A stretch of 64,000 bases of DNA from an uncultured candidatus Porisulfidus sp. (GTDB taxonomy: Bacteria; Pseudomonadota; Gammaproteobacteria; Poriferisulfidales; Poriferisulfidaceae), in contig OZ244883.1 in NCBI GenBank assembly GCA_965221375.1, positions 1,107,893 to 1,171,892 of the forward strand, given 5' to 3'. The notes under the pieces are model-generated. The model did no database searches and had not been told where the DNA came from. It was given only the letters and a program-made list of their open reading frames with translations. Every line of letters starts with the position of its first letter. Position 1 is the stretch's first letter. Positions 23,108 to 48,649 of the stretch are shown here, piece by piece. A program made the translations under genes and the position numbers.

Positions 23108-23125
23108 CCGAACGAATCGGCGGGC

Positions 23126-23650
23126 TTAGAAGCCTTGGAAGGGGTGATCGGTGCTGTCTTTGGCAGAAAGCACATCATCAACCGAAGGAGTTCCAGCAAC
23201 AGCATTTGCAATCGCCTGCTTGGTCGCCTTGTAGTTGTTTTCATAAATCGCCGCATCGCTGGCTGCTTCCCAGTGAATGAAGACACCTACGCACACGTAG
23301 AGATTGTCACATTCATCTTTGGGGATAACGCCTGCTTCCACGGAATCCGCGACTGCCATGGCCACAGCTTTCTGTGCGGGGCCAAACATTTGCACGGCTT
23401 GCTTTGCGCCTTTGATCGTCACCTTGTTGTACATCATGGTGTCGGGTTTGCACGGCAGGTTCGGGCCAACCACAGCCAGCAGGGTGGTGAAACCGTCCTT
23501 GTTGTTCACCAAGCCATTGCAGAATGCGGTTTCCGCCGCGGAGCCGCGCGGTCCAATGATGAGATCGATGTGGGCGATTTCGGCCATAGTCCCGGAGGGA
23601 TCATTGTCATTGACCAAAGCCTCGCCAACGAGAACTTTATCGATTGCCAT
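23126..23650 (-). CDS. fae: formaldehyde-activating enzyme (5,6,7,8-tetrahydromethanopterin hydro-lyase)
   Basis: 174 aa from ATG 23650 (GGAG 8 nt upstream): [16 protein letters not shown]...[44 protein letters not shown]...[17 protein letters not shown]...IHWEA, collinear in my memory with Methylobacterium Fae. The ORF-track start at 23680 adds a spurious 10-aa extension. Confidence 0.9.
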
Positions 23651-23670
23651 TATTAAAACTCCAAAAATTT

Positions 23671-23684
23671 TTGTTTGCAAACAA
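23671..23684. promoter_or_regulatory. perfect 14-bp palindrome TTGTTTGCAAACAA in the fae 5' region
   Basis: Read directly, 21-34 nt upstream of the fae ATG and 29 nt downstream of the orf7-like stop; flanked by AAAAATTTTT. Confidence 0.4.
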
Positions 23685-23712
23685 CGGGCACGCAGTTTTA
23701 AGACGCCCCCGA

Positions 23713-24630: not shown

Positions 24631-24641
24631 TGCAGAAAACT

Positions 24642-28531: not shown

Positions 28532-28563
28532 AAAAAATGTATTCGAAAATTGAAGAGGTAATT

Positions 28564-29550
28564 TTAAGAAATTTGGCGCTGCAGCGGAATCCCTTCCGCC
28601 ATCTCACCTGTCATGACCTGGTGCCCATGGTTGCAGGCACGCACAACATGAACCAACACGTCCGGTTCCGCAAGCTGCAATTCGCGGGAAAGTTTTTGCG
28701 CCTGGGTTTCGCTCTCGGTCAACACAAACCCCGTGGGGCCCCACGAACTTTGTCCTATGCCGGCGAAGCCCAACTGTTCTGCTTTATTCAAACTCGAAGC
28801 AATGGCCGGATGGGTGAAGCGGCCTCCTTGAACCGGAGCGAAATGATCTCCGACCGTCTTCTGCAACTCACCGATGCCCTGCGCAAAGGGTTCGAAATTC
28901 CCCTCAAACAACGCCGGTAAAACACGCATCAAGGTCAACCGACATAGGTGGGCGGCTTTTGCTTCCGGAAGTTTCGGCAAATCATCAAAAGCGGTCCGCT
29001 CCGCGGTTCCCGACAATCCTTCCTCGCCACTTTTTGCTTGCAGCAATACAATCCGCCAATGCTCGGGAAAAGTCTGGCGCACGATAATGGGAGGCAATTT
29101 GGCAGGCTCGCCCCGGCCCCCATCCAGCAAAAATCCTCCTTGCTGAAACGCACCCCATCCAATGCCCGACCTGGATCCTCGGCCCAGTTCAATGCTGATA
29201 TCCCGAAGGCTCATCTCAATGTCAAACAGATATTTAATCGCTGCACCCACGGCCAATGCCAACTGCGTCCCGGATCCTAGTCCCACATGCCCCGGAATGG
29301 CTTCATGCATATGAATTTGGACCGCACCCGGACAATGATAATGCTGCATGACTCGACGCGCATAGTCACAGGCTCGCTGCGCATCCGGGCCGGTCGCTGA
29401 GAATTCGCCGGCAGGCTCGCAGGACAAGTGCGTGCAAAGTTCGCTCAGTGCTACCCCCATGCTTCCGAAATGCCGCCCCAGTCCCCCATGCATATCCAGA
29501 AAACCAAGGTGTAGTCGACCTTGAGTCTTGATTTGAACCGCTTTATTCAT
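28564..29550 (-). CDS. mptG: beta-ribofuranosylaminobenzene 5'-phosphate synthase (H4MPT biosynthesis), GHMP-kinase fold
   Basis: 328 aa; GHMP motif IPGHVGLGSGTQLALAVGAA; fixed member of the H4MPT island. Confidence 0.75.
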   Translation of the reverse strand: MNKAVQIKTQGRLHLGFLDMHGGLGRHFGSMGVALSELCTHLSCEPAGEFSATGPDAQRACDYARRVMQHYHCPGAVQIHMHEAIPGHVGLGSGTQLALAVGAAIKYLFDIEMSLRDISIELGRGSRSGIGWGAFQQGGFLLDGGRGEPAKLPPIIVRQTFPEHWRIVLLQAKSGEEGLSGTAERTAFDDLPKLPEAKAAHLCRLTLMRVLPALFEGNFEPFAQGIGELQKTVGDHFAPVQGGRFTHPAIASSLNKAEQLGFAGIGQSSWGPTGFVLTESETQAQKLSRELQLAEPDVLVHVVRACNHGHQVMTGEMAEGIPLQRQIS

Positions 29551-33651: not shown

Positions 33652-34006
33652 TGGGGGTGACCCGGTTTCGACGGCGGTTACGGACTCCAAGGCGCATGCC
33701 GAGGCGGTAGCGACCTCGTAAAAAATGGCTGCAAAACATTAGTTGCCAACGACGACAACTACGCACTAGCGGCTTGATCCGCTAGTCATCCTTCCGGGAG
33801 ATGCTTGTGGATCCTGTTTGGATGTCGACTACACAAGCTCGCCTTGCAACCTGCCTGGAGTTGAAAGGTTAAACGAAACATCCAGACTGGCGATCATTAA
33901 GTCCTGTCCGTCGGGCGTTGATCGTAAGATAAAAGACGGTGCTAAGCATGTAGTGCCGAAGAGAAAGAACTGTTGGACGCGGGTTCGATTCCCGCCACCT
34001 CCACCA
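33652..34006 (+). ncRNA. ssrA: transfer-messenger RNA (tmRNA, SsrA)
   Basis: 5' GGGGGUGAC...UUCGACGG and 3' GGACGCGGGUUCGAUUCCCGCCACCUCCACCA form the tRNA-Ala-like acceptor/T-arm. Resume codon region GCAUGCCGAGG...; tag ORF GCC AAC GAC GAC AAC TAC GCA CTA GCG GCT TGA = ANDDNYALAA*. Collinear with E. coli ssrA. Confidence 0.93.
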
Positions 34007-34188: not shown

Positions 34189-35346
34189 ATGTCAAAATCT
34201 AGTCAAATGGAACGAAGTGGCCACTTTCGGCATGTGCCTGCGGGGTATAGAGCATTCTTTCCTGCACTACTGCCACCCACGCCCCCTATTGCGATTGAGG
34301 GTAGCCTGCAACAGCTCCTTTCGAAGGCTGATCAAACCATGAGCGTGTTAAATGTGGTTTTTAGTGTTCTGCCTAACCCCGACCAATTAGTAGGAATGTT
34401 CATGCAGAAAGAGGCCTTGCTCAGCTCGCAGATTGAGGGTACCCAATCGTCCCTGATAGATGTGCTGGGAGTCGAAGAAGGTAATCCTCCAACAGCAGAT
34501 GTGGGAGAGGTCTTGAACTACCTGGCCGCCATGCGTCATGGCATGCAGCGTCTGCAAAAAAACGAACTTCCTCTGTGTGCTCGCCTGCTCAAAGAATTAC
34601 ATCTGAAATTGATGGCAGAGACAAGAGGAGGCGGCCCTCATCTCACTCCAGGTGAATTTCGCACTATGCAGAACTGGATTGGCGGCAGTAGCCCCGCCAA
34701 CGCTCGCTTTGTGCCACCCCCGGCCGATGAACTGGGCGTAATGTTCGGAGAGCTGGAGAAGTATTTCCATACCGAGAATGATACGCCGCCATTGGTGCAG
34801 TGTGCCCTGATTCACTACCAGTTTGAAACCCTGCATCCCTTCAATGATGGCAACGGGCGCTTGGGACGTTTGTTAATCAGCCTGTTTTTGTTAAGCAGAG
34901 GTGTGTTGGATCAGCCCATGCTGTATCTCAGCGCCTACCTGAAAATTCATCAACAAGAATATTACGATCGCCTGCAACAAGTGCGCACTGACGGTAGTTA
35001 TGAGAAATGGTTGACCTTTTTCTTGGAAGGTATTGTGGCTGTTAGTGATATGGTCATTGACACTACCCGCCGGATTCAAGCATTAGAGCGCAGTGATACA
35101 GACGCGATGACCACTGCCGGAACTGGCAGCGAAAGCATTGCCTTTATTCGTGCCCTGCTACAGCAGCCTGTTGTTTATGTAAGGGATATTGAAAGGCACT
35201 TGAACATCTCTTATGCCAAGGCCAATCAAATGGTGGCGTTGGCCGAAAAGATGGATATCCTGAAGCAAATCAGTCATGGCAAACGAAACCGGAAATACGG
35301 TTATCAAAAATATATTGAAATTTTGTCTGAAGGAACCGAAATCTAA
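34189..35346 (+). CDS. Fic-family protein (AMPylator-type, class II with N-terminal inhibitory motif) with C-terminal winged-helix domain
   Basis: 385 aa; Fic motif HPFNDGNGRLGRLL; inhibitory-helix-like SSQIEGTQ ((S/T)xxxE(G/N)) upstream of the active site; C-terminal ~70 aa HTH-like. Preceded by an AT-rich 120-bp spacer. Start could be ATG 34207. Confidence 0.85.
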   Translation: MSKSSQMERSGHFRHVPAGYRAFFPALLPPTPPIAIEGSLQQLLSKADQTMSVLNVVFSVLPNPDQLVGMFMQKEALLSSQIEGTQSSLIDVLGVEEGNPPTADVGEVLNYLAAMRHGMQRLQKNELPLCARLLKELHLKLMAETRGGGPHLTPGEFRTMQNWIGGSSPANARFVPPPADELGVMFGELEKYFHTENDTPPLVQCALIHYQFETLHPFNDGNGRLGRLLISLFLLSRGVLDQPMLYLSAYLKIHQQEYYDRLQQVRTDGSYEKWLTFFLEGIVAVSDMVIDTTRRIQALERSDTDAMTTAGTGSESIAFIRALLQQPVVYVRDIERHLNISYAKANQMVALAEKMDILKQISHGKRNRKYGYQKYIEILSEGTEI

Positions 35347-35542
35347 TGCCAAGGCCGCACTTTATATTCCTGGATAAATTACCCCTGTTTCCAAGTGCTT
35401 CACAGAATTGTCATAAAACATAAAACACATATAATAAATGAGCCGTCAACTTATCTGGTTACAGCGCTAGGAGAGTTTCTGCAGCAACTTAATTAGCTTC
35501 CTGCAGGCATAAACGTCAGGTGCTTTATCCAAGAGGTCCCTT

Positions 35543-38074
35543 ATGAAAAACAAACCGACAAAACACTGCAGCCGGACTGGACTTTTCTATGTCCTAGGCT
35601 ATCTGCTACTCGCTATAGCCCCTCCCCTTCACGCCGAGGAAGCTGAAAACGAGGAAGCCGCGGAAACTCCCGTTATCCCAATTAAAGTGGAAGCCGCTGA
35701 GATCAGCACCCAGCCTGGCCATACGAAATATGACGCCGAAGTAATTCAGAACATGCCTACGGGAGACTCTCACCTGTCCGACCTGTTGCGCCTGAATCCG
35801 GCTGTGGACTTTTCCCGAGAAAGCGACATATCCGGCAGTGCCACTCTACGTCCCGACGAAATTTCCATACATGGACAACGGTTTTACCAGAACCTTTTTC
35901 TTATTGACGGCATTGATACTACCAACGACTTGAATCCTGCATCGACTAATGACATTTTCAGTAACCCCAGTCTCTTCTTTCCGAATGGGGGAAGTTCCCC
36001 CCAGGGGTATTACGTTGACGTAGAACTGCTAGATAATGTCCAAGTTTTCGACAGTAATATTCCAGTCGAGTACGGGGGCTTCACCGGTGGAGTAATCTCT
36101 GCCGAACTGAAATCCTACGAGGGCGAAGACAAGTTTTCATGGCGCTTTGGAATAAAGCGAGATGAATGGGAGAGATATCATGTCAATGAGGGCGACCTTA
36201 CAGCTGCAGATTACTACGGTGGAGTCTACACACCCGACTATCAAAAAACCAATTTTAGAGTTAATGTGCAGCGGGAGATTGCTGAGAATTGGGGTTTAAA
36301 CTTAAGCGTGTCGCGACGTGTTTCACGCTTTGATCAGCGTTACGACAAAATAATTTCTGCAACAGGCCCTGTAGAAGACCGTACTGATAGACGGACCATC
36401 GAATACGAGGATAGAGTCGACAATATTCTCGGGCGAGTGGACACCGTGTGGGAAGGGAAAAAACTCGGACTCTCGTTCCGCTACGCTCGACGTCGACACG
36501 ATGGTCTAACCGCAACAAATTACGATGGGAGATTCGAGAAAGACCACGACGGTTACGGAATAACTGCTGACCTTGAAGGTGAGCGACCTTCCGGCCTATG
36601 GAAACTTAAGTTTGGCGCCGATCAGTTATCCGATGAATTAGACAGCGAGGACAATCTCTTTAGCTCCCATGAATCTGCGGAAGCGAGCCTGCTAGACTTG
36701 CAATACGAAGGTTCATACGGTGACACCAAGCAGAGGCAAACACGTCTCACTTTGAAACCGAAGTGGATTTTTAATACGCAGCATTTTTCTGGTGCCGAGC
36801 ACGACATTACTGCAGGTGGCGAAATGCGCTATACGAAAAGTTTCTACGAACGGCCGAGCAAGGTCGTCTATGAAAAATACGATTGCCGAACAGATAGTGC
36901 CGACCGTCTCGGTTGCCAAGACTATGATGGAGATGGTATCAGTGACCGTGGCGACGAATACCTTGCCCGAGTTGTCGACTATCTTCCCGGTAAAGTGAAT
37001 CTCAGCTACGGTGAATGGGCACTCTATGCTGAAGATCGGATGAACTTTGGACGGTTAAAGGTCAACGCTGGTTTGCGGGCAGATCGTAACAGCTTTCTCG
37101 AAAATCTGGATGTAGCACCACGCCTTTCCTTGGACTGGAACGTCTTTGGCGATGGACGAACTCACATCACTGCCGGTGCCAATCGCTACTATGGGCGTAG
37201 TTTCATGCGCCTTCAGCTGAACGATGCGATCTATGGGTGGCGAGAATGGCGTGATTACAACCAAGACGGCTCTTTAAGGCGTCTCCGCACCTACGACAAC
37301 AGAAGCGGAGCTTCGGACTTGGACACCCCCTATTCAGATGAGTGGATGCTCGGTTGGAGCCAAATATTCGGCCCGCTTACTCTCCGCATGCAGTATGTTG
37401 ATCGTAAAAGTCGGGATGGGATAACTCGCCGATATGAAAATATCGATGATGACAGTGCCCGCGAATACTACTACACAAACGACGGACGCAGTTCGACTGA
37501 AAGTACGACATTTGAAGTGACCACTGAAACCCCCAAAAGCCCTGGCGCTGCTTGGACCCAATTCACACTGGCGTTGAATTACAAAGATTCTGAAAGCAAC
37601 TCCCAAGATGACGCTGGCTACGACGAAGCAATCGACGAAGAACTCATTTATTACAAAGGTCGAGTGATTTCATTTGACCAACTCCCAGCATGGGATTACA
37701 ACATTCCATTCGGAGCTCGTTTGTTTGCAACGACCCATATCCCCCAGTGGAACGTGGTTTGGTCGAACTTTTTCAACCTGCGCCGGGGTGGAACCATTGC
37801 CCAAGATTCACGTAGGGACTGCGACGATAGAGACCCAGTTACAGGTGAAGTTTATTGTGACGGCGATTATGACATCTACGAAGATACTGACTTCAAAAGT
37901 TTGGTCATCGTAGACACCAAAATTCAATGGCAACCCCGTATCCTCGACCAGTCATTCTACGTGAAAGTTGAAGTCAAAAACGTGTTTGATAAAGTCATCA
38001 ACGTCAGCACCACCACTCGCAGATCCTACACAAGTGGGCGACTTTGGTGGATTGAGACGGGCATGGATTTCTGA
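35543..38074 (+). CDS. TonB-dependent outer-membrane receptor
   Basis: 843 aa; signal peptide ...APPLHA, TonB-box-like ETPVIPIKVEA, plug motif VEYGGFTGGVISAELKS, long beta-rich body, C-terminal aromatic residue (..GMDF). Spot GC count ~40%. Confidence 0.8.
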   Translation: MKNKPTKHCSRTGLFYVLGYLLLAIAPPLHAEEAENEEAAETPVIPIKVEAAEISTQPGHTKYDAEVIQNMPTGDSHLSDLLRLNPAVDFSRESDISGSATLRPDEISIHGQRFYQNLFLIDGIDTTNDLNPASTNDIFSNPSLFFPNGGSSPQGYYVDVELLDNVQVFDSNIPVEYGGFTGGVISAELKSYEGEDKFSWRFGIKRDEWERYHVNEGDLTAADYYGGVYTPDYQKTNFRVNVQREIAENWGLNLSVSRRVSRFDQRYDKIISATGPVEDRTDRRTIEYEDRVDNILGRVDTVWEGKKLGLSFRYARRRHDGLTATNYDGRFEKDHDGYGITADLEGERPSGLWKLKFGADQLSDELDSEDNLFSSHESAEASLLDLQYEGSYGDTKQRQTRLTLKPKWIFNTQHFSGAEHDITAGGEMRYTKSFYERPSKVVYEKYDCRTDSADRLGCQDYDGDGISDRGDEYLARVVDYLPGKVNLSYGEWALYAEDRMNFGRLKVNAGLRADRNSFLENLDVAPRLSLDWNVFGDGRTHITAGANRYYGRSFMRLQLNDAIYGWREWRDYNQDGSLRRLRTYDNRSGASDLDTPYSDEWMLGWSQIFGPLTLRMQYVDRKSRDGITRRYENIDDDSAREYYYTNDGRSSTESTTFEVTTETPKSPGAAWTQFTLALNYKDSESNSQDDAGYDEAIDEELIYYKGRVISFDQLPAWDYNIPFGARLFATTHIPQWNVVWSNFFNLRRGGTIAQDSRRDCDDRDPVTGEVYCDGDYDIYEDTDFKSLVIVDTKIQWQPRILDQSFYVKVEVKNVFDKVINVSTTTRRSYTSGRLWWIETGMDF

Positions 38075-38142
38075 CCACGGGTATGCTGCTGGCGACAGCA
38101 GAGACACAGCTTTGATTTGGATGTATGCTCGGCAGAGCATGA

Positions 38143-39117
38143 TTGGCTAGATGCCAAACATCATGCCCCGCTGAACTCAAATTTAATTTTCGGCTGGCAT
38201 TTATGAATATTCCAAGTGATTTGAGTGCCGGCACTAAAGGCGCAATCGCCTCTCGCCACTGGTTTGCCTCCACCGCAGCGGCAAGTTTGCTGCATATATG
38301 CGTCTTGGGGTTACTCTCTTTGACCACTGTCGAGGGAGCCGAAGATCAAGGCGAACAAGGTGTTGAAATTGACTTCGGCATGCTTGGCGACATGGGCGAA
38401 ATGGTGGAAACTTTAGCGCAGAGCCAAGCCGCCGCCGAAGCCTATTCGAAGGTGATGCCCGAAGAAAAAATTGAAGAGCCCATAGACCCGCCTAAAGCAC
38501 CCGAGCCTGTGCCTGAACCGGAAACCGAGACTAAACCCAAAGAAGAAAAAAAGATAGTCAAAAAGGCGGAAGTCGTCCAGCCCGTCATAGAATCGGTTCA
38601 AAAAAAGAAATCCGAAAAAAACATTAGAAAGCCTGTCCCGGAGTTTGTACATAAACCTGCCCCACCATGGCCAAAGACGCATACCCAACCCGCCAAACCG
38701 GTAACCGCACGTCAGAAGCCGGCACAAACACCGAGCCGGCCTGCGATCGATTCGCCTGCCGTAGCGAAAATATCTACCGGACAGGCCCAGGCAAAATCGA
38801 TGGGAGGTAACCCCGGTGCGGAACGCGCCTATCTTGCCTTGCTGGCCGCCAAATTGCGTAGCAAGAAATTTTATCCGCTATCGGCAAGACTCAACAAAGA
38901 TGAAGGGGAAGTAACTCTGCTCCTTACGCTCGGCCGCGATGGGCAGGTCCTGGATGCACGCATCGGCAGAAGCTCCGGGATTTCTGTGCTCGACGAATCT
39001 GTTCTGCAGATGCTGGAGAAAGCCAAACCCCTGCCCCCTTTCCCGTCGAGCATGCAGCAATCAAGATTTACTGTACGTATTCCTGTTTCTTTTAAACTGG
39101 ACCAGTTTTTTAACTAG
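38143..39117 (+). CDS. tonB: TonB energy-transducer
   Basis: 324 aa (or ~304 from MNIPSD at 38203); N-terminal TM with SxxxH (ASLLH), Pro/Glu/Lys-rich spacer (PEPVPEPETETKPKEEKK), C-terminal TonB domain (YPLSARLNKDEGEVTLLLTLGRDGQV). Confidence 0.8.
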   Translation: MARCQTSCPAELKFNFRLAFMNIPSDLSAGTKGAIASRHWFASTAAASLLHICVLGLLSLTTVEGAEDQGEQGVEIDFGMLGDMGEMVETLAQSQAAAEAYSKVMPEEKIEEPIDPPKAPEPVPEPETETKPKEEKKIVKKAEVVQPVIESVQKKKSEKNIRKPVPEFVHKPAPPWPKTHTQPAKPVTARQKPAQTPSRPAIDSPAVAKISTGQAQAKSMGGNPGAERAYLALLAAKLRSKKFYPLSARLNKDEGEVTLLLTLGRDGQVLDARIGRSSGISVLDESVLQMLEKAKPLPPFPSSMQQSRFTVRIPVSFKLDQFFN

Positions 39118-39185
39118 CGGAATCGGGTCCAAGCGATTTGGCGTCAGGTCTCTGGCGGAATCCTACCTTGCCCGTGTCTATGTAA

Positions 39186-40271
39186 CTAGCGCCCTGGTAG
39201 TTGAGGGGGTCTCACAATGTGGGGACGGCGACCTAGCGTGCCGAGAAAAGCTTCGAGGGCCTGAATTTCGCTTTCTTCCAAGTCCAGAGGCCTGATAAGT
39301 GGAGAAAGTTCAGGTTCCTCGGGAACTCTTTTTTTTGAAAACGAGATGCCGCGGTTATACATGCGAAGAATACCCGTGAGATTGTCAAACAATCCGTTAT
39401 GCATCCAAGGCCCGGTAAATGCGAGGTCCCGCAATGAGGGGGTGCGAAATTTGCCGCGGTCGCTCACTTCACCAGTTACGTAAAAGCGGCCCAAATCCTC
39501 AAACCGACGACCGGTATAACTGAGTCCTGTGTGATGAAATTGGCCATCCGAAAACAGCGAGCCATGATGGCAGTTCATGCATCGCGCCTTGGTGCGAAAT
39601 AAATGCAGTCCTTCAATTTCCTGATCTGATAACCGGTCGTATTCCCCTCGGACGAATTGATCAAACGGACTGGTCCGAGACCGAATCGTTCGGATAAATG
39701 CGCTCATTGCTTGAGCGATGCGATCGAGATTAATTTCGGGAGTGCCAAACGCATTTTGAAATTCCGTAGCGTAACCATCAATCTTGGATATCCGCTCGAT
39801 CACGTGATCCAAGTTTGCCTTCATCTCAATAGAACTTGCAATCGGTATGGGAATCAATGACAGCAGGTCGTCCGCCCGCCCGTCCCAAAAGAGCTTGTCG
39901 AAATACGCCACATTCAGGAGCGTCATCGTATTGCGGCGTCCGGAGAGGCGATCGTGTCCGAAAGCCACTTCTCGGCCATCAGTCCAGCCAAGTTGTGATT
40001 CGTGGCAGTTCGCACAAGCAATCTGTTGGGAGCCCGACAAGCGTGGGTCAAAAAACAGGATTCTGCCAAGTCGCTCAATTTCTTTAGTCTGCCACGAGAC
40101 TTTAGCTGGGGGTTGAAGTTCTCCCAACTCGACAGCATGGACCCCCGCATCTACTTCAAAAGGAGGCCATGCCTCGACACCTTGTCGATACTGATCTACC
40201 AGACCTGCCGAAAGCCCAGTGCAGGCCGATAGGCATACATGAAACAAAATCAGTTTATGTACAAATTTCAT
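39186..40271 (-). CDS. di-haem cytochrome c peroxidase family lipoprotein (CCP/MauG/MbnH family)
   Basis: 361 aa; lipoprotein signal ...CLSAC, two CxxCH haem sites (CANCHE, CMNCHHG), conserved PSLRD and W/M residues of bacterial CCPs. Confidence 0.85.
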   Translation of the reverse strand: MKFVHKLILFHVCLSACTGLSAGLVDQYRQGVEAWPPFEVDAGVHAVELGELQPPAKVSWQTKEIERLGRILFFDPRLSGSQQIACANCHESQLGWTDGREVAFGHDRLSGRRNTMTLLNVAYFDKLFWDGRADDLLSLIPIPIASSIEMKANLDHVIERISKIDGYATEFQNAFGTPEINLDRIAQAMSAFIRTIRSRTSPFDQFVRGEYDRLSDQEIEGLHLFRTKARCMNCHHGSLFSDGQFHHTGLSYTGRRFEDLGRFYVTGEVSDRGKFRTPSLRDLAFTGPWMHNGLFDNLTGILRMYNRGISFSKKRVPEEPELSPLIRPLDLEESEIQALEAFLGTLGRRPHIVRPPQLPGR

Positions 40272-40411
40272 GATTGTCCGCAGTTCCTGCGCTGCTTACT
40301 CGCGTAACACCTCGCTACTCCATGCACATCTTTATTTTACTTTCAAACGTATGAAAGCGTCTCGACCGCCTCAACTGTACCTGCAAAACCCCCATAGAAA
40401 AGAACCGCACA

Positions 40412-40834
40412 TCAACTTTCTTCCGGCCTGCTGAATAAAGTAACTTTAGAAATTTGAAGCTGGCGCAGAATCTCGAACAATCGGTCCAGATTTTTAGCCT
40501 TAACCTCTTTATCTGCTTTCACGATGACCCCTTCTGAACCTGCATTTGTTGCTCCCAAAATATCCGCATCCAAAGATTCGTACGTGACAGGCTTGCCATT
40601 GATACTGAGTGAATTATCTGTTTCCAGAATCAGCACAACCGGAGCATGTACTAATGGTTTTTTACTACTTGAAACCGGAGGATCAATATTACGTCCTCGA
40701 GGATCCGTAATCTGCCCAGCAATCATATAAAACACCAGCATCAAAAACACGATGTTGACAAGTGGAATCATGTTATCGTCACCACCACGTTTAGAACGTG
40801 GCGTATATAACTCGTTCGAAAACATACCGCCCAC
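40412..40834 (-). CDS. exbD: ExbD/TolR-family biopolymer transport protein
   Basis: 140 aa; N-terminal MIPLVNIVFLMLVFYMI TM, periplasmic ExbD domain. Confidence 0.8.
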   Translation of the reverse strand: MGGMFSNELYTPRSKRGGDDNMIPLVNIVFLMLVFYMIAGQITDPRGRNIDPPVSSSKKPLVHAPVVLILETDNSLSINGKPVTYESLDADILGATNAGSEGVIVKADKEVKAKNLDRLFEILRQLQISKVTLFSRPEES

Positions 40835-40841
40835 AATGAAC

Positions 40842-41264
40842 TTATTCAGTTTTTTCAGAGAATGAGTTCCCCAAGGTCACATGTTTGAGACCAATCCTCT
40901 TGAGACTTTCAATGGCGGAGAGGATGGTTTGCAGATTTGCATTTTCTTCCGGCAAGACGACATGGGACTTTTCGAATTCGAACTCAAAAATGCTTGGGTC
41001 TGTGAGTTCTTTGTAGTGCGCAACTGAAAAAGTGCTGTCGTGGAACCTCAGGCCACCCACTTCATCCAGCCACACAATTTGCGGCAACTGAACATCCTCA
41101 CTAAAACTTGAAGTCGGAGAATGAAGGTCTACTGCCCGCCATTGAGTAAACGTAAAGGACAGCATGAAAAACAGCAATAATATGAATACTACGTCAATTA
41201 GCGCGGTTAAACTGATTGTGTGACGCCTTGCGCGATAAAGCGGCTCCGCATTCATAGATGCCAT
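40842..41264 (-). CDS. exbD: ExbD/TolR-family biopolymer transport protein (second paralogue)
   Basis: 140 aa; LTALIDVVFILLLFFML TM segment; tandem ExbD as in ExbB-ExbD1-ExbD2 systems. Confidence 0.78.
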   Translation of the reverse strand: MASMNAEPLYRARRHTISLTALIDVVFILLLFFMLSFTFTQWRAVDLHSPTSSFSEDVQLPQIVWLDEVGGLRFHDSTFSVAHYKELTDPSIFEFEFEKSHVVLPEENANLQTILSAIESLKRIGLKHVTLGNSFSEKTE

Positions 41265-41279
41265 CTCAAATCACGTCAC

Positions 41280-41948
41280 TTACTGCCCATTGGCTCTTGC
41301 CTGGATCGTAAACAGGCGTTCCAAATCATCTTGTATCCCCGCAGCATACCGCTCAACCCGGCGCTCAAACCAACTATGAGCCAGCGCAACCGGGATGGCG
41401 ACTGCCAAACCCACCGCCGTCGTCAACAGAGCCTTCCATATCCCTCCGGAGAGTACTGCAGGATTAACTTGCGAACCGGCTGCCTCCATAGCCTGAAAAG
41501 CCTCAATCATGCCCAGAACCGTGCCAAATAACCCCAAAAGCGGGGATAAAGTGAAAATCACTTCGAGCGGACGCAGATAATTCCCTAATTTCCGAATCAC
41601 CGTTTTAGCAACGCGCATGGACTCCGCTCTTACTTCGTCCAAGGAAAGATTCGAATTTTCAAAAAGCTTCAAAGTTTCATATGAAATATACGCGCGCGGG
41701 TCCTTTTGCCCCTGCAGCAGTAACATCGCCTGTGGTCTGTCTCCACTTTCAATAAGGTCGAGGGCTTGAGTGCTATCCGTCTTCGAAGTTTGCCTTATCG
41801 AAAAAAATTGCCAAAATTTGACCAGACTGATAGTAAGGGCAACTACTGAAAAACAACCTAATAGCCAAACAACGGGTCCCCCGAGAACCAAAAATTTACT
41901 AAGGTTTTCAAACATGACATGCATGTAAGCCATAATGAAACTTGCCAA
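41280..41948 (-). CDS. exbB: ExbB/TolQ/MotA-family proton-channel protein
   Basis: 222 aa; three TM segments, LSPLLGLFGTVLGMIEAF signature. Confidence 0.82.
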   Translation of the reverse strand: MASFIMAYMHVMFENLSKFLVLGGPVVWLLGCFSVVALTISLVKFWQFFSIRQTSKTDSTQALDLIESGDRPQAMLLLQGQKDPRAYISYETLKLFENSNLSLDEVRAESMRVAKTVIRKLGNYLRPLEVIFTLSPLLGLFGTVLGMIEAFQAMEAAGSQVNPAVLSGGIWKALLTTAVGLAVAIPVALAHSWFERRVERYAAGIQDDLERLFTIQARANGQ

Positions 41949-42174
41949 ATGCGGGTTTGTCTAAGAAAAAATAGGAATTATTTAACTAAAAGAACGAGAA
42001 TAGCTCTTTTCAGTACAAGTATTATAGATTGCGTTTCGCCAGATCCGTGGAATGCCGATGAAGATACTGCTTCTTTTCTCTAGTTTCCGGGATAGAGAGG
42101 CTTACATTTTCTCCGAAATTATTAAAATACGCAATAACGCCAATTCCTCACGTCTCTATAAGAAACCTCGCGCT

Positions 42175-42498
42175 ATGACTTTTGTTGTGACCGAAGACTG
42201 CATCAAATGCAAATACACCGATTGTGTAGAAGTCTGCCCGGTCGAATGCTTCCATGAAGGCCCGAATTTTCTCGTCATAGACCCGGAGGAATGCATTGAC
42301 TGTGCACTGTGTGTGCCGGAATGTCCGATTGATGCGATTGTGCCGGAGAAAGACTTGCCTGAAAATCAAAAAGACTTCCTTGAACTGAATGCCAACCTCT
42401 CAAAAGAATGGCCGGTGATCGCTCTGCAGAAGCCTCCCCCTCCCGATGCGGACGAGTGGCGCAACATACCAAATAAAAGAGACTTGCTTGAGGCTTGA
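42175..42498 (+). CDS. fdxA: 7Fe ferredoxin (Azotobacter FdxA-type)
   Basis: 107 aa from ATG 42175: [51 protein letters not shown], i.e. CxxCxxxC...CP and CxxCxxCxxxCP. The ORF-track N-terminal 41 aa (from 42052) do not look like coding sequence. Confidence 0.85.
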
Positions 42499-45357
42499 GT
42501 GAAACTGCTCATATGCCCCACGCACCAATTACTGAGTGCTTATTGCGCGGAAACGATTATTAACCGGCATGCCGAACTGCTGCCGGACCTGACTCGATTA
42601 ACGCTGCTCACTCCAAATGCAACCTCGGCTGTTGCTTTTCGACGGGCCTTACTTCTCGAAGCTCAAAAAAGAGACTTTACCGGGTTGATATTGCCCGATA
42701 TTCAGCCTCTGCGCACTTGGGTCCAAACGAGTCAAGACGCCCCCAAAGCTGAAAGCTCTTTGTCCGAACTGTTGGATTTGTGGCAGGCGTTGCGCACTTC
42801 TCCACATGTGCTCAACCAGTCTAATCCTTGGGCCACCGCTCGCGAACTACTCACACTGTTCGAAGGCCTTTGGCTAAGCGACGATTATTTTCTGCAGGAT
42901 GAGGACCAGATGACAGCTCGGTTGCAGCAAGCCTATGGCATTCCTGACAGCTCCTCTGTAAAGTTCCGAAATGAAACCCATGTTGTCCACAATCTGTGGC
43001 GGGCCTGGGAAGCTGGATCAAAAGAACTGCTAAGTTCCAGTCAGCAATATCGTGAAGCCCTTCGAAAGGTCCCGGAAGCAGTAGAGACGGAAGCTTTATA
43101 CCTGTGCGGCTATGAACGATTGATGCCTGCGGAAATACAAGCGCTGCAGCAAATAAGCCGAAACATACCCGTGACCTGTCTGACGCGACCGCGTCATTAC
43201 ATTCGATCAGATCTGCCTGTGGAGGAAATTTCTGCGGCCCCTTCGCCGTATGCGTATGCCCTTGAGCAGGCATTTAATCTTGGTAGCGAGGAAAATTTGA
43301 GAAAGCGGGCACAGGCCTGCCGAAAAATCTACCCTCAAAGCCCTCTCTCCGGTCGATTGCATTTTTTTGCCGCTGAGCAAGCCGAGCCTCATGCCAGTGC
43401 AATTACACTCCAAATCCGCCGCTGGATTCACGAAAAGAGGCAAAACATCGGGCTTGTAACCGAAGACCGAAAACTGGCACGCCGGATACGTGCTCTTTTG
43501 GAACGCCACGACATTTACGTCAATGATTTTGCGGGTTGGGCTCTGTCGACCACGAGTGTCGCCGGTGTCATCGTGCATTGGCTGGATTGCCTTGATCAAG
43601 ATTTTTACTATCGCGTGATGCTCGATGTATTGAAATCACCATTTGTGAAATTCAAGAATATTAAGCCCCATCATCTAAAACAGGTCAAAGAACTGGAAAC
43701 GCTGCTGCACAGAAACCACACCTCCCAAGGTTGGGCGCATTATGAATGTCTGGCAACTCAAAAACCGGAACTGCAGAATTTATTGCGTGCGGTAAACCAA
43801 GCTGCCGAGCCTTTAACAACCCTTCGATCAAACCCCACCGGGCCCGAATACATCACTGCCCTACTCAAAAGCCTTGACCGGCTGGGTTGCATCGCGAGTT
43901 TTTCTGATGACGAGGCGGGTCGTCAAGTTTTGGAGAAGCTTGAAGCCATTCGTTTTCAGTTAACCGACAACACCGCAAATTTGCCCAAACATCAGTGGCG
44001 TTCAATTATTTGCCATTTCCTGGAAAACCAGGATTTCCGGCCTGAAACTTCACAGCCTGGCGTGTCTTTGATTAATCTCAATCAATCCCATATGGCTCAA
44101 TTCGATTATTTGATTGTTGCCGGTATGGATGCTCGGCATTATCCTCACACTTCTTCATCTTTCATTTTTAACGACACCGTCCGGAAAGATTTGGGCTTGC
44201 CAACTGAAGCTGAACAGCGGGAACTGGATTTGCAGCGCTTTTCAGCCTTGCTGATGTCCACCGAAAAAGTGTTGATGACATATCAGAAAAACGAGGAGGA
44301 CGAGCCTTTGCTGCCAAGCACCTGGTGGACTCAAATAAAGGTTTTCAACAAACTTGCTTACAAGAAACCGCTGGACGATCAATGGCTTCCCTCCATGCTC
44401 TCCTGGCAAACAAATGAATCTCTCTACCCACCCCAGAAAGCCCCTCGCCCTGATTCCGTCCAATCCATGCCGCAGCCTGCAGCATGTGCGGACTTGCTCC
44501 CCGAAAAAATATCAGCGAGGGCTCACCAGGACCTAATCCACTGCCCTTATCGTTTTTATGTGCATTACATGCTGGATATTCGAAAGATTGACACGATCCG
44601 TGAAGAAATGAATCCCGCAGATTTTGGCAACTTTGTCCATAGATGTCTTGAAGCTTTTCACAAGGATGTTCCAGGCCTTCCCGGACCTTGGGAAAAGCCT
44701 ATCACCGGGAATGAAGGTGATGCGCTGGATACGCTGGAAAAAATTGGTCGGCACAGTATCGAACGCCATGATGACAACCTTCCCCGAAAAGTTTTTTTGG
44801 AACGCTGGAGACAAATTTCACGACGTTATCTGGAAATGCAGAAAAATATCGAAACCGAAAGAAGTATTGTTGAAGTTGAAAATAAATCCGAGCGTGACCT
44901 TGGGGGCCTCACTCTGCATGGGCGCATTGATCGCATCGACCAGACTCGGAATTCAAACAAAATTGTGATCGACTACAAGACCGGAAGTACTCCCATTAAA
45001 AATCCAGAAATACAAGCGGGAGAAGACGTTCAGTTAATCAGCTATACCTTGATACACGATGCGATTGATCAAGTCGAATATTGGTGGCTCAATTCCAGCA
45101 ACACGTACACATCTCATGAACGCACTACCCTATCGAACAAAACATTGCTCGATGTGCGCAACAAAGTTTGCGACCGGCTGTTAAGCCTCTACCAGCGCCT
45201 GCAGGAAAACGCGAGTCTCCCGGCGAACGGCAGTCAAGAAGCATGTAAGTATTGCGATGCGAAAGGCATTTGCCGAAAAGATGTCTGGCAAGATCAAGAC
45301 CAGACAATAAAGCAAGCAGGAATAACTATTGAGACGAAGACGGCAACTCTTCCATGA
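42499..45357 (+). CDS. AddB-like PD-(D/E)XK nuclease with Fe-S 'iron staple', N-terminal inactivated-helicase-like region
   Basis: 952 aa starting with GTG directly after the fdxA stop (TGA GTG). No Walker A seen. C-terminal RecB-type nuclease motifs (GRIDRID...IVIDYKTG) flanked by Cys before (HCPYRFY) and CxxCxxxxxC after (CKYCDAKGIC), the AddB four-Cys arrangement. No AddA/UvrD-like partner in the window. Confidence 0.65.
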   Translation: MKLLICPTHQLLSAYCAETIINRHAELLPDLTRLTLLTPNATSAVAFRRALLLEAQKRDFTGLILPDIQPLRTWVQTSQDAPKAESSLSELLDLWQALRTSPHVLNQSNPWATARELLTLFEGLWLSDDYFLQDEDQMTARLQQAYGIPDSSSVKFRNETHVVHNLWRAWEAGSKELLSSSQQYREALRKVPEAVETEALYLCGYERLMPAEIQALQQISRNIPVTCLTRPRHYIRSDLPVEEISAAPSPYAYALEQAFNLGSEENLRKRAQACRKIYPQSPLSGRLHFFAAEQAEPHASAITLQIRRWIHEKRQNIGLVTEDRKLARRIRALLERHDIYVNDFAGWALSTTSVAGVIVHWLDCLDQDFYYRVMLDVLKSPFVKFKNIKPHHLKQVKELETLLHRNHTSQGWAHYECLATQKPELQNLLRAVNQAAEPLTTLRSNPTGPEYITALLKSLDRLGCIASFSDDEAGRQVLEKLEAIRFQLTDNTANLPKHQWRSIICHFLENQDFRPETSQPGVSLINLNQSHMAQFDYLIVAGMDARHYPHTSSSFIFNDTVRKDLGLPTEAEQRELDLQRFSALLMSTEKVLMTYQKNEEDEPLLPSTWWTQIKVFNKLAYKKPLDDQWLPSMLSWQTNESLYPPQKAPRPDSVQSMPQPAACADLLPEKISARAHQDLIHCPYRFYVHYMLDIRKIDTIREEMNPADFGNFVHRCLEAFHKDVPGLPGPWEKPITGNEGDALDTLEKIGRHSIERHDDNLPRKVFLERWRQISRRYLEMQKNIETERSIVEVENKSERDLGGLTLHGRIDRIDQTRNSNKIVIDYKTGSTPIKNPEIQAGEDVQLISYTLIHDAIDQVEYWWLNSSNTYTSHERTTLSNKTLLDVRNKVCDRLLSLYQRLQENASLPANGSQEACKYCDAKGICRKDVWQDQDQTIKQAGITIETKTATLP

Positions 45358-47851: not shown

Positions 47852-48649
47852 TTATGCAAATGAAGGACGACGACGGTGGTAGTGTTTTACATCCCGAAAG
47901 TTCCCGCTTTCGGATCCCAAGTACAGCTCTTTCACATCTGCGCGGTCCAACAAATCCTTGGCATCGCCGCGCAACATGACGCGCCCATTTTCCACCACAT
48001 ACCCTTCGGTGGCATAGCGCAGGGCAATCATGGCATTCTGCTCGGCAACCAGGAAACTGACGCCCTCTTTTTTGTTGAGGTTGTTGACAATTTCAAATAC
48101 CTCTTCGACCAACTGGGGCGCGATTCCCATTGAAGGCTCATCAAGCAAAATCAACTGCGGCCGCGACATCAATGCGCGACCGATTGCGATCATCTGCTGT
48201 TCCCCGCCCGAAGTGAAACCGGCCTGGCTTTTGCGTCGTACTTTAATGCGCGGGAAATATTCGTAAATCAGTTCCAAGTCTTTTTTTGCTTCCGAACGAT
48301 TCTGGCGGATGAACGAGCCGGACAGCAGGTTCTCTTCAACTGTCAAGTGCGCAAAGCAGTGACGACCTTCCAACACCTGCACCATGCCGCCTTTCACCAA
48401 ATCGTAAGCGCTCATGCCGGCAATATCTCTGCCCATGAATTCAATGGAGCCCTTGCTGACTTGCCCGCGCTCAGCAGGCAACAGGTTGGAGCACGCCTTG
48501 AGGGTGGTCGTTTTGCCGGCGCCATTGGCGCCCAACAGAGAAACGATACTACCCTTTTTCATTTGCAGACTGATTCCACGCAACGCCAAAATGACGCGGT
48601 TGTAGGTCACTTCAATGTTATTGATGGAAAGCAGCAAATCGTCGCTCAT
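47852..48649 (-). CDS. HAAT-family ABC transporter ATP-binding protein (LivF-like)
   Basis: 265 aa; Walker A GANGAGKTT, signature SGGEQQMIAIGRAL, Walker B LILLDEPS; last gene of the operon. Confidence 0.85.
   Translation of the reverse strand: MSDDLLLSINNIEVTYNRVILALRGISLQMKKGSIVSLLGANGAGKTTTLKACSNLLPAERGQVSKGSIEFMGRDIAGMSAYDLVKGGMVQVLEGRHCFAHLTVEENLLSGSFIRQNRSEAKKDLELIYEYFPRIKVRRKSQAGFTSGGEQQMIAIGRALMSRPQLILLDEPSMGIAPQLVEEVFEIVNNLNKKEGVSFLVAEQNAMIALRYATEGYVVENGRVMLRGDAKDLLDRADVKELYLGSESGNFRDVKHYHRRRPSFA

What the first reader, a model, noticed from the sequence alone, without database searches (positions are those of the whole stretch)
35543..41948. TonB-dependent receptor / TonB / di-haem CCP-family lipoprotein / ExbB-ExbD-ExbD locus: candidate metal (Cu/Fe/haem) acquisition system
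A full energy-transduction set (TonB, ExbB and two ExbD paralogues) is clustered with one outer-membrane receptor and a di-haem cytochrome c peroxidase/MauG-family lipoprotein. Di-haem CCP/MauG homologues of the MbnH type are known to pair with TonB-dependent transporters in copper-uptake loci of methanotrophs and other bacteria. There they oxidise a Trp of a partner protein MbnP. Here no MbnP-like ORF is present. The CCP may be a conventional peroxidase co-located by chance, or it may work on a different partner or on the receptor's substrate. The receptor has an unusually acidic, Asp-rich body. The whole locus sits in the low-GC segment.
Basis: inference. Interest (0 to 1): 0.55.

Follow-up and report, generated by a model that had tools for sequence, protein, structure and literature searches.

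The report
FusA-type receptor with MauG-like haem partner
This is a conserved six-gene outer-membrane uptake cassette, probably for iron, in which a receptor of the protein-importing FusA/YddB class is paired with a MauG-type two-haem enzyme instead of the usual protease; the pairing was noted once in the literature but has never been studied.

Summary
All six genes are present as described: receptor, TonB, di-haem CCP-family protein, two ExbD and ExbB.

- **Receptor.** It is not a generic receptor. By sequence and by predicted fold it belongs to the small FusA/YddB clade of protein-importing transporters.
- **Haem protein.** It is neither a housekeeping peroxidase, nor MbnH, nor MauG. It belongs to a separate clade with an invariant Tyr (Y305) at the position of MauG's Tyr294 haem ligand and no conserved Met, so it is MauG-type.
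- **Linkage.** The cassette recurs as a unit in many gammaproteobacterial metagenome genomes with unrelated flanks. The same CCP clade also sits beside a more distant FusA-like receptor, and in Bacteroidota beside a TBDR–DUF4876–DUF6850 set. The nearest sister receptor carries an M16 protease in the partner slot.
- **Metal.** Fur-like boxes in relatives and one fusion to an EfeO/DUF1111/DUF1513 operon point to iron, not copper. There is no MbnP, no M16 protease and no Fur box in the window.

Grinter et al. (2019) mentioned CCP genes beside FusA homologues, so the pairing is known but uncharacterised. The mechanism, redox processing of imported cargo, is inferred.

The parts
35408..35435 (+). 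Sigma-70-like promoter (TTGTCA, 16 nt, TATAAT) upstream of the receptor-TonB operon. The CATAAAACATAAAACA repeat forms its spacer.
   Evidence: Matches 11 of 12 consensus positions; sequence read. This is a consensus match only. No Fur-like box lies here (best 10 of 19).
35543..38074 (+). TonB-dependent outer-membrane transporter of the FusA/YddB (protein-import) clade, 843 aa. It has a signal peptide, a TonB-box-like ETPVIPIKV, a plug, a 22-strand barrel and a C-terminal Phe.
   Evidence: Pfam Plug only. phmmer against PDB gives YddB 6ofr E = 2.4e-80 and FusA 4zgv E = 7e-67, with no other transporter found. It is 28% identical to E. coli YddB over 801 aa. For the AF2 model (pLDDT 74), Foldseek gives FusA E = 1.8e-51 (TM 0.74) and YddB E = 1.5e-49 (TM 0.72/0.80), against E = 1e-24 (TM 0.56) for the next transporter.
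36884..36958 (+). Insertion specific to this receptor family: a Cys448...Cys458 pair followed by DYDGDGISDRGDE (residues 460-472), which looks like a Ca-binding loop. It is absent from YddB.
   Evidence: C448, C458 and D460 are invariant or nearly so, as are G463, G465, D471 and E472, across 44 homologues. The region is a gap in YddB. Its function was not tested.
38203..39117 (+). TonB, about 304 aa from the ATG at 38203 (the ORF opens at TTG 38143). It has an N-terminal TM helix with an S..H motif, a Pro/Glu/Lys-rich linker and a C-terminal TonB domain.
   Evidence: Pfam TonB_C E = 2e-15; TIGR01352 at 67.9 bits, above the 27.1 cut-off. PDB hits are generic TonB/HasB C-terminal domains. Start codon read.
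39186..40271 (-). MauG-type di-haem CCP-family protein, 361 aa, secreted. Last gene of the exbB-exbD-exbD-ccp operon and convergent with tonB.
   Evidence: PF03150 E = 4e-50. It scores below the MauG and MbnH NCBIfam cut-offs. Y305 aligns with MauG Tyr294 and is invariant in 87 homologues, whereas M304 varies. H106, N114, W129 and E149 are conserved. It lies outside the canonical bCCP clade. The AF2 model has the CCP/MauG fold.
40412..40834 (-). ExbD paralogue 2. The transmembrane Asp is replaced by Asn (LVNIVF).
   Evidence: Pfam ExbD E = 1.8e-18. The Asn at the Asp position recurs in 10 relatives.
40842..41264 (-). ExbD paralogue 1. It keeps the transmembrane Asp (LIDVVF).
   Evidence: Pfam ExbD E = 4.1e-10; D/N comparison.
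41280..41948 (-). ExbB proton-channel subunit, first gene of the minus-strand operon.
   Evidence: Pfam MotA_ExbB E = 4.4e-27. It scores below the equivalog cut-offs for both TolQ and ExbB.

Best explanation
The locus is a self-contained TonB-dependent import machine, and iron acquisition is its most probable purpose.

**Proposed working.**
- The outer-membrane transporter belongs to the FusA/YddB class. Its characterised members, or their proposed roles, involve taking a whole small metalloprotein into the periplasm.
- A dedicated TonB with an ExbB-ExbD1(Asp)-ExbD2(Asn) motor energises the transporter.
- A secreted MauG-type di-haem enzyme (His/Tyr-ligated second haem) occupies the partner slot that the M16 protease FusC/PqqL holds in classical systems.
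- That enzyme probably acts by redox chemistry on what the transporter brings in, either the cargo protein or its metal cofactor, so that the metal is released or converted.

**Shown here.**
- The gene content.
- The class of the transporter.
- The MauG-type ligand signature.
- The conserved linkage of this CCP clade with transporters.
- The protease-for-CCP exchange between sister transporter subfamilies.
- Fur-like boxes in relatives.

**Inferred.**
- That the cargo is a protein.
- That the metal is iron.
- That the enzyme works on the cargo.
For: **1. Transporter class.**
- phmmer against PDB finds only YddB (E = 2.4e-80) and FusA (E = 7e-67).
- The AF2 model matches FusA and YddB at E about 1e-50, against 1e-24 for every other transporter.
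- Across 1.84 billion representatives, only 248 clusters match at E <= 1e-30.

**2. Linkage.**
- The cassette recurs with unrelated flanks in two arrangements.
- The window-type arrangement is ExbB-ExbD-ExbD-CCP convergent with TonB-TBDR (L081, L082).
- The collinear arrangement is CCP-TBDR-ExbB-ExbD-ExbD-TonB (L002, L003, L005, L007, L010, L011, L084-L086, L094).
- Starting from the receptor side, 6 of 7 sampled loci have an adjacent CCP.
- CCPs not linked to a receptor form one nested subclade with 99% bootstrap, so linkage is ancestral.

**3. Partner swap.**
- The nearest receptor outside this subfamily (P0241, 41% identity) is followed by a PqqL-like M16 protease (E = 2e-59).
- A more distant FusA-like receptor (P0243, 33% identity) is followed by a CCP of the same clade. 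That CCP is 44% identical and has the same GHDR and MYN motifs.

**4. MauG-type signature.**
- Y305 aligns with Tyr294.
- Y305 is invariant in 87 of 87 homologues, while M304 varies.
- The E-haem ligand is the criterion that separates canonical (His-Met) from MauG-type (His-Tyr) enzymes. MauG-type enzymes use H2O2 as an oxidant on protein substrates (PMC11892367).

**5. Iron.**
- Fur-like boxes lie upstream of the cassette in relatives: L083 16 of 19, L096 15, L086 14, L084 and L082 13. Only 4% of background segments reach 13.
- In L096 the CCP-TBDR pair continues an EfeO-like/DUF1111/EfeO-like/DUF1513 operon. Price et al. link that operon to iron uptake by cofitness (bioRxiv 072470).
- The yddB/pqqL operon is Fur-regulated (PMC6793856).

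**6. Prior proposal.** Grinter et al. 2019 noted CCP genes where FusC is absent and proposed redox release of an iron cofactor.
Against: - No substrate is known for any member, and no experiment exists on a CCP-linked system.
- The window's own promoters lack a recognisable Fur box. The best score is 10 of 19 in the receptor promoter region and 12 of 19 for the exbB-side scan, where the best match lies inside the neighbouring ORF.
- About half of the closest genome-derived CCP orthologues (6 of 13) sit away from any receptor. One receptor cassette, L095, has no CCP. The pairing is therefore not obligatory.
- MauG-type enzymes normally have a dedicated substrate protein encoded next door, and none is present here.
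- Assigning Tyr305 as a haem ligand rests on alignment only. The protein also keeps His106, the distal-His loop typical of canonical activatable peroxidases.
- By pairwise score and fold it is at least as close to canonical bCCPs as to MauG.
- The host carries H4MPT C1-pathway genes, so a copper role cannot be excluded on ecological grounds.
Confidence: 0.5

Rival explanations
1. The di-haem protein is a protective peroxidase. It is co-expressed with an iron importer to remove periplasmic H2O2 and limit Fenton damage while iron comes in, and it does not touch the cargo.
For: The fold and the N-terminal domain are closest to bona fide peroxidases: MacA E = 1.9e-44 and TM 0.62-0.66. His106, Trp129, Glu149 and the Ca-site Asn114/Thr277 are conserved. 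Orthologues also occur away from any receptor.
Against: The canonical Met ligand is absent and a Tyr is invariant in its place. MauG-type enzymes are poor peroxidases (PMC11892367). Protection does not explain why the same clade is tied to three unrelated transporter types, or why it replaces an M16 protease.
Confidence: 0.17
2. The enzyme handles the iron itself. On this view it is a periplasmic Fe(II)/Fe(III) oxidoreductase analogous to the haem peroxidase EfeB in EfeUOB or to DUF1111 in the imelysin operon, and the cargo is an iron chelate or mineral form rather than a protein.
For: In L096 the CCP-TBDR pair is collinear with EfeO-like, DUF1111 and DUF1513 genes. That operon is linked to ferrous iron uptake. 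In Bacteroidota the clade sits with TBDR-DUF4876 loci, a type that is strongly induced by iron starvation (PMC10434189).
Against: Only one of about 20 gammaproteobacterial loci carries the imelysin genes. The receptor's nearest characterised relatives are thought to take proteins. No inner-membrane iron permease is encoded in the cassette.
Confidence: 0.15
3. This is copper acquisition of the MbnT/MbnP/MbnH or CorA/CorB type. The MauG-type enzyme would make a kynurenine copper site on a partner encoded elsewhere in the genome.
For: The haem signature is MauG-type. The host has H4MPT methylotrophy genes nearby. MbnH-like enzymes pair with TonB-dependent transporters in copper loci (PMC3621798).
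Against: The protein scores 194 bits against the MbnH model cut-off of 363. No MbnP is found in the window or in any of the cassettes. The receptor is FusA/YddB-type. Relatives carry Fur-like boxes. Most relatives are Pseudomonadales-like metagenome genomes with no sign of methanotrophy.
Confidence: 0.05
4. The MauG-type enzyme modifies a component of the machine itself, for example by oxidising a Trp or Tyr of the receptor plug or of TonB into a protein-derived cofactor.
For: Known MauG-type enzymes act on a protein encoded beside them. Here the only non-motor neighbour is the receptor. The receptor family has many invariant Trp, His and Cys residues and a unique Cys-Cys/Ca-like loop.
Against: This is pure inference. 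Receptor cassettes exist without a CCP (L095), and CCP orthologues exist without a receptor. The MauG hole-hopping Trp199 is not conserved; the window protein has K228 at that position.
Confidence: 0.05

Closest known systems
Fus ferredoxin-uptake system of Pectobacterium (FusA receptor, FusB TonB homologue, FusC M16 protease, FusD ABC transporter)
   Same: The receptor is of the same structural clade (Foldseek E = 1.8e-51, TM 0.74). A dedicated TonB homologue is encoded next to it, and a periplasmic processing partner sits in the same operon neighbourhood.
   Different: There is no M16 protease and no ABC transporter. The partner is a di-haem MauG-type enzyme. The locus also encodes its own ExbB and two ExbD. 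The TonB resembles generic TonB domains. The substrate is unknown.
YddB/PqqL/YddA of E. coli and the 'protease-associated import systems' of Grinter et al. 2019 (PMC6793856)
   Same: YddB is the closest solved relative (E = 2.4e-80, 28% identity over 801 aa). The paper states that FusA homologues lacking FusC are often next to cytochrome c peroxidase genes, which is the arrangement seen here.
   Different: The CCP-linked variant was only mentioned in that paper, not analysed. It did not report the His/Tyr MauG-type signature, the separate CCP clade, the full TonB-ExbB-ExbD-ExbD set or the Bacteroidota counterpart. The window's receptor family also has an extra Cys-Cys/Ca-like loop that YddB lacks.
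MauG (tryptophan tryptophylquinone maturation) and MbnH (kynurenine formation on MbnP)
   Same: It has the di-haem CCP fold and the inter-haem Trp (W129). A Tyr sits at the MauG Tyr294 position. It is 33% identical to MauG over 338 aa.
   Different: It scores below both family cut-offs. No mau or mbnP genes are nearby. It lacks the MauG Trp199 equivalent. It keeps the distal-His loop (H106), which MauG and MbnH lack. It forms its own clade.
Canonical bacterial di-haem cytochrome c peroxidases (P. aeruginosa CcpR, G. sulfurreducens MacA, N. europaea CCP)
   Same: These give the best pairwise and fold scores. The GH loop, the Ca-site residues and Glu149 are shared.
   Different: There is no Met ligand for the E haem; an invariant Tyr takes its place. 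The protein lies outside the canonical clade, which has 96% bootstrap. It has a conserved N-terminal YRQP..WPPF extension and is genetically tied to transporters.
EfeUOB and the imelysin-DUF1111-imelysin-DUF1513 iron-uptake operons
   Same: A periplasmic haem peroxidase-type enzyme is embedded in an iron-uptake gene set. In L096 the two systems are physically fused.
   Different: Those systems use an inner-membrane permease or other components, and a DyP or DUF1111 enzyme. None of those genes is in the window.

Membership tests
FusA/YddB clade of TonB-dependent transporters | Sequence similarity to FusA/YddB that excludes other transporters | tested here: met
   phmmer against PDB returns only YddB (E = 2.4e-80, full length) and FusA (E = 7e-67) among transporters. 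tblastn with YddB gives 28% identity over 801 aa, E = 6e-84.
FusA/YddB clade of TonB-dependent transporters | Fold closest to FusA/YddB, including the loop architecture | tested here: met
   For the AF2 model, Foldseek gives FusA E = 1.8e-51 and YddB E = 1.5e-49 (TM 0.72-0.80), against the next hit at E = 1e-24 and TM 0.56. The model is of medium confidence (pLDDT 74), and loop-by-loop comparison was not possible.
FusA/YddB clade of TonB-dependent transporters | Large open extracellular cavity and import of an intact protein | not testable with these tools
Protease-associated import system (Fus / YddB-PqqL) | M16 protease (FusC/PqqL) encoded with the receptor | tested here: not met
   tblastn with PqqL finds no hit in the 64 kb window. 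The cassette has no free coding space. The sister receptor P0241 does carry one.
Protease-associated import system (Fus / YddB-PqqL) | Associated ABC transporter (FusD/YddA) | tested here: not met
   The only hit is a weak generic ATPase match at 48377-48601, which belongs to a branched-chain amino-acid ABC system.
MbnH (MbnP-modifying di-haem enzyme) | Score above the TIGR04039 cut-off | tested here: not met
   193.8 bits against a cut-off of 362.85.
MbnH (MbnP-modifying di-haem enzyme) | Adjacent MbnP partner gene | tested here: not met
   tblastn with Methylocystis MbnP gives a best E of 2.7. No extra gene appears in any related cassette.
MauG | Score above the TIGR03791 cut-off and a mau gene context | tested here: not met
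   224.1 bits against a cut-off of 443.85. No mauA, mauB or amicyanin neighbours are present.
MauG-type bCcP (broad sense: His-Tyr E haem) | Tyr in place of the Met axial ligand of the E haem | tested here: met
   Y305 aligns without gaps with MauG Y314, which is mature Tyr294. It is invariant in 87 homologues, while the adjacent M304 varies. hhalign places the Met of E. coli Ccp opposite Y305. This is met by alignment only; ligation itself has not been shown. One MAFFT run aligned the canonical peroxidases differently, but that alignment still leaves no conserved Met.
MauG-type bCcP (broad sense: His-Tyr E haem) | Formation of a bis-Fe(IV) state and oxidation of a protein substrate | not testable with these tools
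   This needs spectroscopy and a known substrate.
Canonical bacterial cytochrome c peroxidase | Two CxxCH haem sites, inter-haem Trp and Ca site | tested here: met
   C86xxC89H90, C231xxC234H235, W129, N114 and T277 are invariant, and P278 nearly so.
Canonical bacterial cytochrome c peroxidase | His-Met ligation of the E haem and membership of the canonical clade | tested here: not met
   No conserved Met sits at the ligand position. Canonical sequences form a separate clade with 96% bootstrap. That tree is neighbour-joining, has few references, and two of them are partial.
TonB-ExbB-ExbD energy transducer | TonB C-terminal domain, ExbB MotA/TolQ channel domain and ExbD domain | tested here: met
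   All score above Pfam cut-offs. They score below the NCBIfam equivalog cut-offs for both Tol and Exb, so assignment to TonB rather than Tol rests on context and on the TonB_C hit.
TonB-ExbB-ExbD energy transducer | Protonatable Asp in the ExbD transmembrane helix | tested here: inconclusive
   It is present in ExbD1 (LIDVVF) and replaced by Asn in ExbD2 (LVNIVF). The same split occurs in 10 relatives.

The most novel reading that the evidence does not exclude
A clade of MauG-type di-haem enzymes has been recruited repeatedly as the periplasmic processing partner of TonB-dependent transporters. The recruiting transporters are two FusA-like subfamilies in Proteobacteria and TBDR-DUF4876-DUF6850 sets in Bacteroidota. 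In these systems high-valent haem chemistry would replace proteolysis, either to dismantle an imported metalloprotein or to install a protein-derived cofactor on the transport machinery. This would be a previously unrecognised, redox-based mode of nutrient extraction from imported macromolecules.
Probability: 0.25. Interest if true: 0.8.

Novelty: new variant of a known kind. Interest (0 to 1): 0.55.

Why it matters
FusA-type transporters are the only known route by which bacteria import whole proteins as nutrients. Their substrates are unknown outside Pectobacterium.

A widespread variant that swaps the protease for a MauG-type oxidant would show that cargo can be processed by redox chemistry. 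It would also give the orphan MauG-like enzymes a new physiological role. And it would offer a tractable handle on iron scavenging from proteins by environmental, probably marine, Gammaproteobacteria and by Bacteroidota: a six-gene cassette with clear mutant predictions.

The ExbD Asp/Asn pair may also bear on how asymmetric ExbB-ExbD motors work.

Tried and rejected
- **Fur box in the window.** A 19-mer consensus scan of all five intergenic regions gave at most 11 of 19, which is background level. An AAATGAG half-site just after the -10 box at 35436 was noted but is not significant.
- **Genomic island at the tmRNA.** No direct repeat of the tmRNA 3' end was found in the scanned stretch up to 47 kb, and no integrase-family hit turned up among the ORFs scanned between 42 and 57 kb. 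Only the low GC and a Fic gene point to an island, so it is not supported.
- **MbnP, PqqL/FusC and YddA homologues in the window.** None found.
- **Imelysin, DUF1111 and DUF1513 in the window or other loci.** Present only in L096.
- **Riboswitch or small RNA in 33-43 kb.** Only the tmRNA was found.
- **Metagenome scan with the receptor.** It returned a single locus.
- **Plasmid search with the receptor.** It returned only YddB-type hits and no CCP-linked example.
- **SusC/SusD linkage of the Bacteroidota homologues.** Seen in only a few loci. The general pattern there is TBDR-DUF4876-DUF6850-CCP.
- **Fold search of the CCP model.** It did not separate canonical from MauG-type enzymes.
- **Tree building.** A first bootstrap tree timed out and was redone with a faster distance routine.

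Full report
**Observation.**
- 35543-38074 (+): Plug domain only.
- 38143-39117 (+): TonB_C. The likely ATG start is at 38203.
- 39186-40271 (-): CCP_MauG, E = 4e-50.
- 40412-40834 (-) and 40842-41264 (-): ExbD.
- 41280-41948 (-): MotA_ExbB.

The genes form two convergent operons, receptor-tonB and exbB-exbD-exbD-ccp. Gaps between genes are 68-140 bp, so no further gene fits.

The low GC (0.46-0.52) and the acidic, Asp-rich receptor (10.1% Asp, pI 4.8) are real. The acidity is shared by the whole receptor family. The CATAAAACATAAAACA repeat is the spacer of a strong sigma-70-like promoter at 35408-35435. The CCP's lipobox (LSAC) is not conserved in orthologues.

**The receptor.**
- Against all PDB sequences the receptor hits only E. 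coli YddB (E = 2.4e-80, full length) and the Pectobacterium ferredoxin receptor FusA (E = 7e-67).
- It is 28% identical to YddB over 801 residues.
- An AlphaFold model (pLDDT 74) matches FusA and YddB at E about 1e-50 (TM 0.72-0.80). Every other transporter scores 1e-24 or worse (TM about 0.56).
- Among 1.84 billion representative proteins, only 248 clusters match at E <= 1e-30. The window's own subfamily collapses into one 50% cluster.
- The family carries an insertion that YddB lacks: a Cys448-Cys458 pair followed by a DxDGDGxSxxGDE loop.

FusA imports intact ferredoxin. YddB is proposed to import an unknown protein. Both work with a periplasmic M16 protease (PMC6793856).

**The haem protein.** It has two CxxCH sites, the inter-haem Trp (W129), the Ca-site residues and Glu149.

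It fails both specific family models: MauG at 224 bits (cut-off 444) and MbnH at 194 bits (cut-off 363). Pairwise, it is about equally distant from all references:
- 36% identical to MacA and to Paracoccus CCP, over the N-terminal region only.
- 34% identical to MauG.
- 32% identical to MbnH.

The criterion used in the field is the E-haem ligand, His-Met in canonical enzymes and His-Tyr in MauG-type enzymes (PMC11892367).
- Y305 aligns without gaps with MauG Tyr294. I checked the numbering: precursor Y314 minus the 20-residue signal peptide.
- Y305 is invariant in 20 gammaproteobacterial and 67 Bacteroidota homologues. The neighbouring M304 varies.
- A profile-profile alignment places the ligand-motif Met of E. 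coli Ccp opposite Y305.
- One MAFFT run aligned the canonical sequences three residues away. Even then the family has Leu, not Met, at the canonical position.

In a neighbour-joining tree the canonical peroxidases form their own clade (96% bootstrap). The window's family is separate from MauG and MbnH too.

The family also keeps His106, the distal-His loop of activatable canonical enzymes, so it is a hybrid. The fold search could not discriminate: bCCPs gave TM 0.62-0.66, MbnH 0.60 and MauG 0.55-0.59.

I therefore call it MauG-type by ligand signature. It is a member of neither MauG nor MbnH.

**Linkage.** The pairing with the receptor is conserved.
- Of 13 gammaproteobacterial genome loci found with the CCP, 7 have the receptor next to it. 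Six of those show the full cassette CCP-TBDR-ExbB-ExbD-ExbD-TonB.
- The two closest metagenomic relatives, with CCPs about 70% and 63% identical to the window's in the family alignment, have exactly the window's convergent arrangement with different flanks.
- Starting from receptor homologues, 6 of 7 loci have an adjacent CCP.
- 28 exact contig lengths are shared between the top-120 CCP and receptor hit lists.
- The six unlinked CCPs form one nested subclade (99% bootstrap), so linkage looks ancestral.

**Partner swap and recurrence.**
- The nearest receptor outside the subfamily (41% identity) sits in a FecI/FecR-controlled operon, directly followed by a PqqL-like M16 protease.
- A more distant FusA-like receptor (33% identity) is directly followed by a CCP of the same clade. 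That CCP is 44% identical and has the same YxQP..WP, GHDR and MYN motifs.
- In Bacteroidota, 54 of 67 loci place the homologous CCP (43-50% identity) at the end of a TBDR-DUF4876-DUF6850-CCP cassette. That receptor is unrelated to FusA by BLAST.
- DUF4876 proteins are predicted transporter lids (bioRxiv 2023.03.17.533168). DUF4876-TBDR loci are among the genes most strongly induced by iron starvation in P. gingivalis and B. thetaiotaomicron (PMC10434189).

**Which metal.**
- The window's own promoters have no recognisable Fur box.
- Relatives do have Fur-like boxes upstream of the first cassette gene: L083 GTAAATGATTATCATTAAC (16 of 19), L096 (15), L086 (14), and L084 and L082 (13). Only 4% of random 310-bp segments reach 13.
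- In L096 the CCP-receptor pair continues an EfeO-like/DUF1111/EfeO-like/DUF1513 operon. Cofitness data tie that operon to iron uptake (bioRxiv 072470).
- No MbnP, M16 protease or YddA-like transporter is in the window.
- The host does carry H4MPT C1-pathway genes 6-12 kb upstream.

**Mechanism.** I commit to this model. The transporter is a FusA-class importer driven by its own TonB and an ExbB-ExbD1-ExbD2 motor. It takes up an iron-bearing cargo, most likely a small metalloprotein. The MauG-type enzyme then acts on that cargo in the periplasm by redox chemistry, in place of the protease.
- Shown: the components, the transporter class, the ligand signature, the conserved and recurrent linkage, the protease/CCP exchange, and Fur-like boxes in relatives.
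- Inferred: the nature of the cargo, iron as the metal, and the enzyme's target.

The rivals keep substantial weight. They are a protective peroxidase, an EfeB-like iron oxidoreductase, an MbnH-like copper role, and modification of the machine itself.

**Novelty.** Grinter et al. (2019) wrote that FusA homologues lacking FusC are often next to cytochrome c peroxidase genes, and suggested redox release of an iron cofactor. I found no follow-up.

The window is therefore a member of a variant that has been noticed but not characterised. Four things appear to be new here:
- the partner is MauG-type and forms its own clade;
- this clade is tied to three different transporter types across two phyla;
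- the cassette carries a complete dedicated motor;
- that motor has a conserved Asp/Asn ExbD pair.

**Limits.**
- The organism is unidentified.
- The trees are neighbour-joining with few references, two of them partial.
- Both AlphaFold models are of medium confidence, and no haem is modelled.
- The Fur scan uses the E. coli consensus.
- Context sampling is small (about 20 gammaproteobacterial loci).

Noticed in passing
window 40412-40834 and 40842-41264: The two ExbD paralogues differ at the essential transmembrane Asp. The first gene keeps Asp (LIDVVF) and the second has Asn (LVNIVF). The same Asp/Asn split is seen in 10 related cassettes, which suggests an obligately asymmetric ExbD heterodimer.
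   Followed up: partly
window 36884-36958 (receptor residues 448-472): The receptor family has an insertion that is absent from YddB: two invariant Cys residues followed by DYDGDGISDRGDE, which looks like a calcium-binding loop. Its position in the barrel and loops, and its function, are unknown.
   Followed up: partly
L014-L080 (Bacteroidota genome loci), for example L014 about 4000-11038: In 54 of 67 loci the homologous CCP is the last gene of a conserved TBDR (Plug + CarboxypepD_reg)-DUF4876-DUF6850-CCP cassette. In two others (L040, L093) it follows SusC-SusD-Calx-beta. DUF4876-TBDR loci are strongly induced by iron starvation in published Bacteroidota transcriptomes.
   Followed up: partly
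L096 1811-10487: EfeO-like (M75), DHOR/DUF1111, EfeO-like, DUF1513, CCP and a FusA-like receptor lie in one collinear run. Fur-like boxes sit upstream of the first gene (13 of 19) and in the CCP-receptor gap (15 of 19). No ExbBD-TonB is adjacent.
   Followed up: partly
L097 6393-13694 and L098 1840-12018: More distant FusA-like receptors carry an N-terminal STN signalling domain and are preceded by ECF sigma/FecR pairs. One is followed by a PqqL-like M16 protease and the other by a CCP of the window's clade. The window's receptor has no STN domain and no regulator.
   Followed up: partly
L095 2011-12953; window 42499-45357: A related receptor-ExbB-ExbD-ExbD-TonB cassette without a CCP lies directly downstream of AddB/AddA-like genes. 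The window's cassette is also next to an AddB-like PD-(D/E)XK gene, which hints at residual synteny.
   Followed up: no
window 21829-29550: A run of tetrahydromethanopterin C1-pathway genes: methenyl-H4MPT cyclohydrolase (MCH), an Mpt_N dehydrogenase, ATP-grasp proteins, and CitG-like, GHMP-kinase-like and PTPS-like genes. This suggests a methylotroph-like or formaldehyde-oxidising gammaproteobacterial host.
   Followed up: no
window 33653-34006 and 34189-35346: A tmRNA gene (tag ANDDNYALAA) is followed by a Fic/DOC-family gene at the edge of the low-GC segment. No repeat of the tmRNA 3' end was found in the scanned stretch up to 47 kb, and no integrase-family hit turned up among the ORFs scanned, so an integrated island is not demonstrated.
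   Followed up: yes
window 42052-42498: A 7Fe-type ferredoxin gene (Fer4 + DUF3470) lies just beyond exbB. The ORF's first 42 or so codons are probably not translated (MTFVVTEDC... starts at 42178). Its adjacency to a ferredoxin-receptor-like transporter is not conserved in relatives and is probably coincidental.
   Followed up: no
window 55661-56920: A HipA-like toxin kinase gene (HipA_C, E = 1e-50) lies in a second low-GC dip at about 56-59 kb.
   Followed up: no
L082 12022-14759: In this relative the receptor is called as two ORFs (508 and 378 aa). This is either a frameshifted pseudogene or an assembly error.
   Followed up: no
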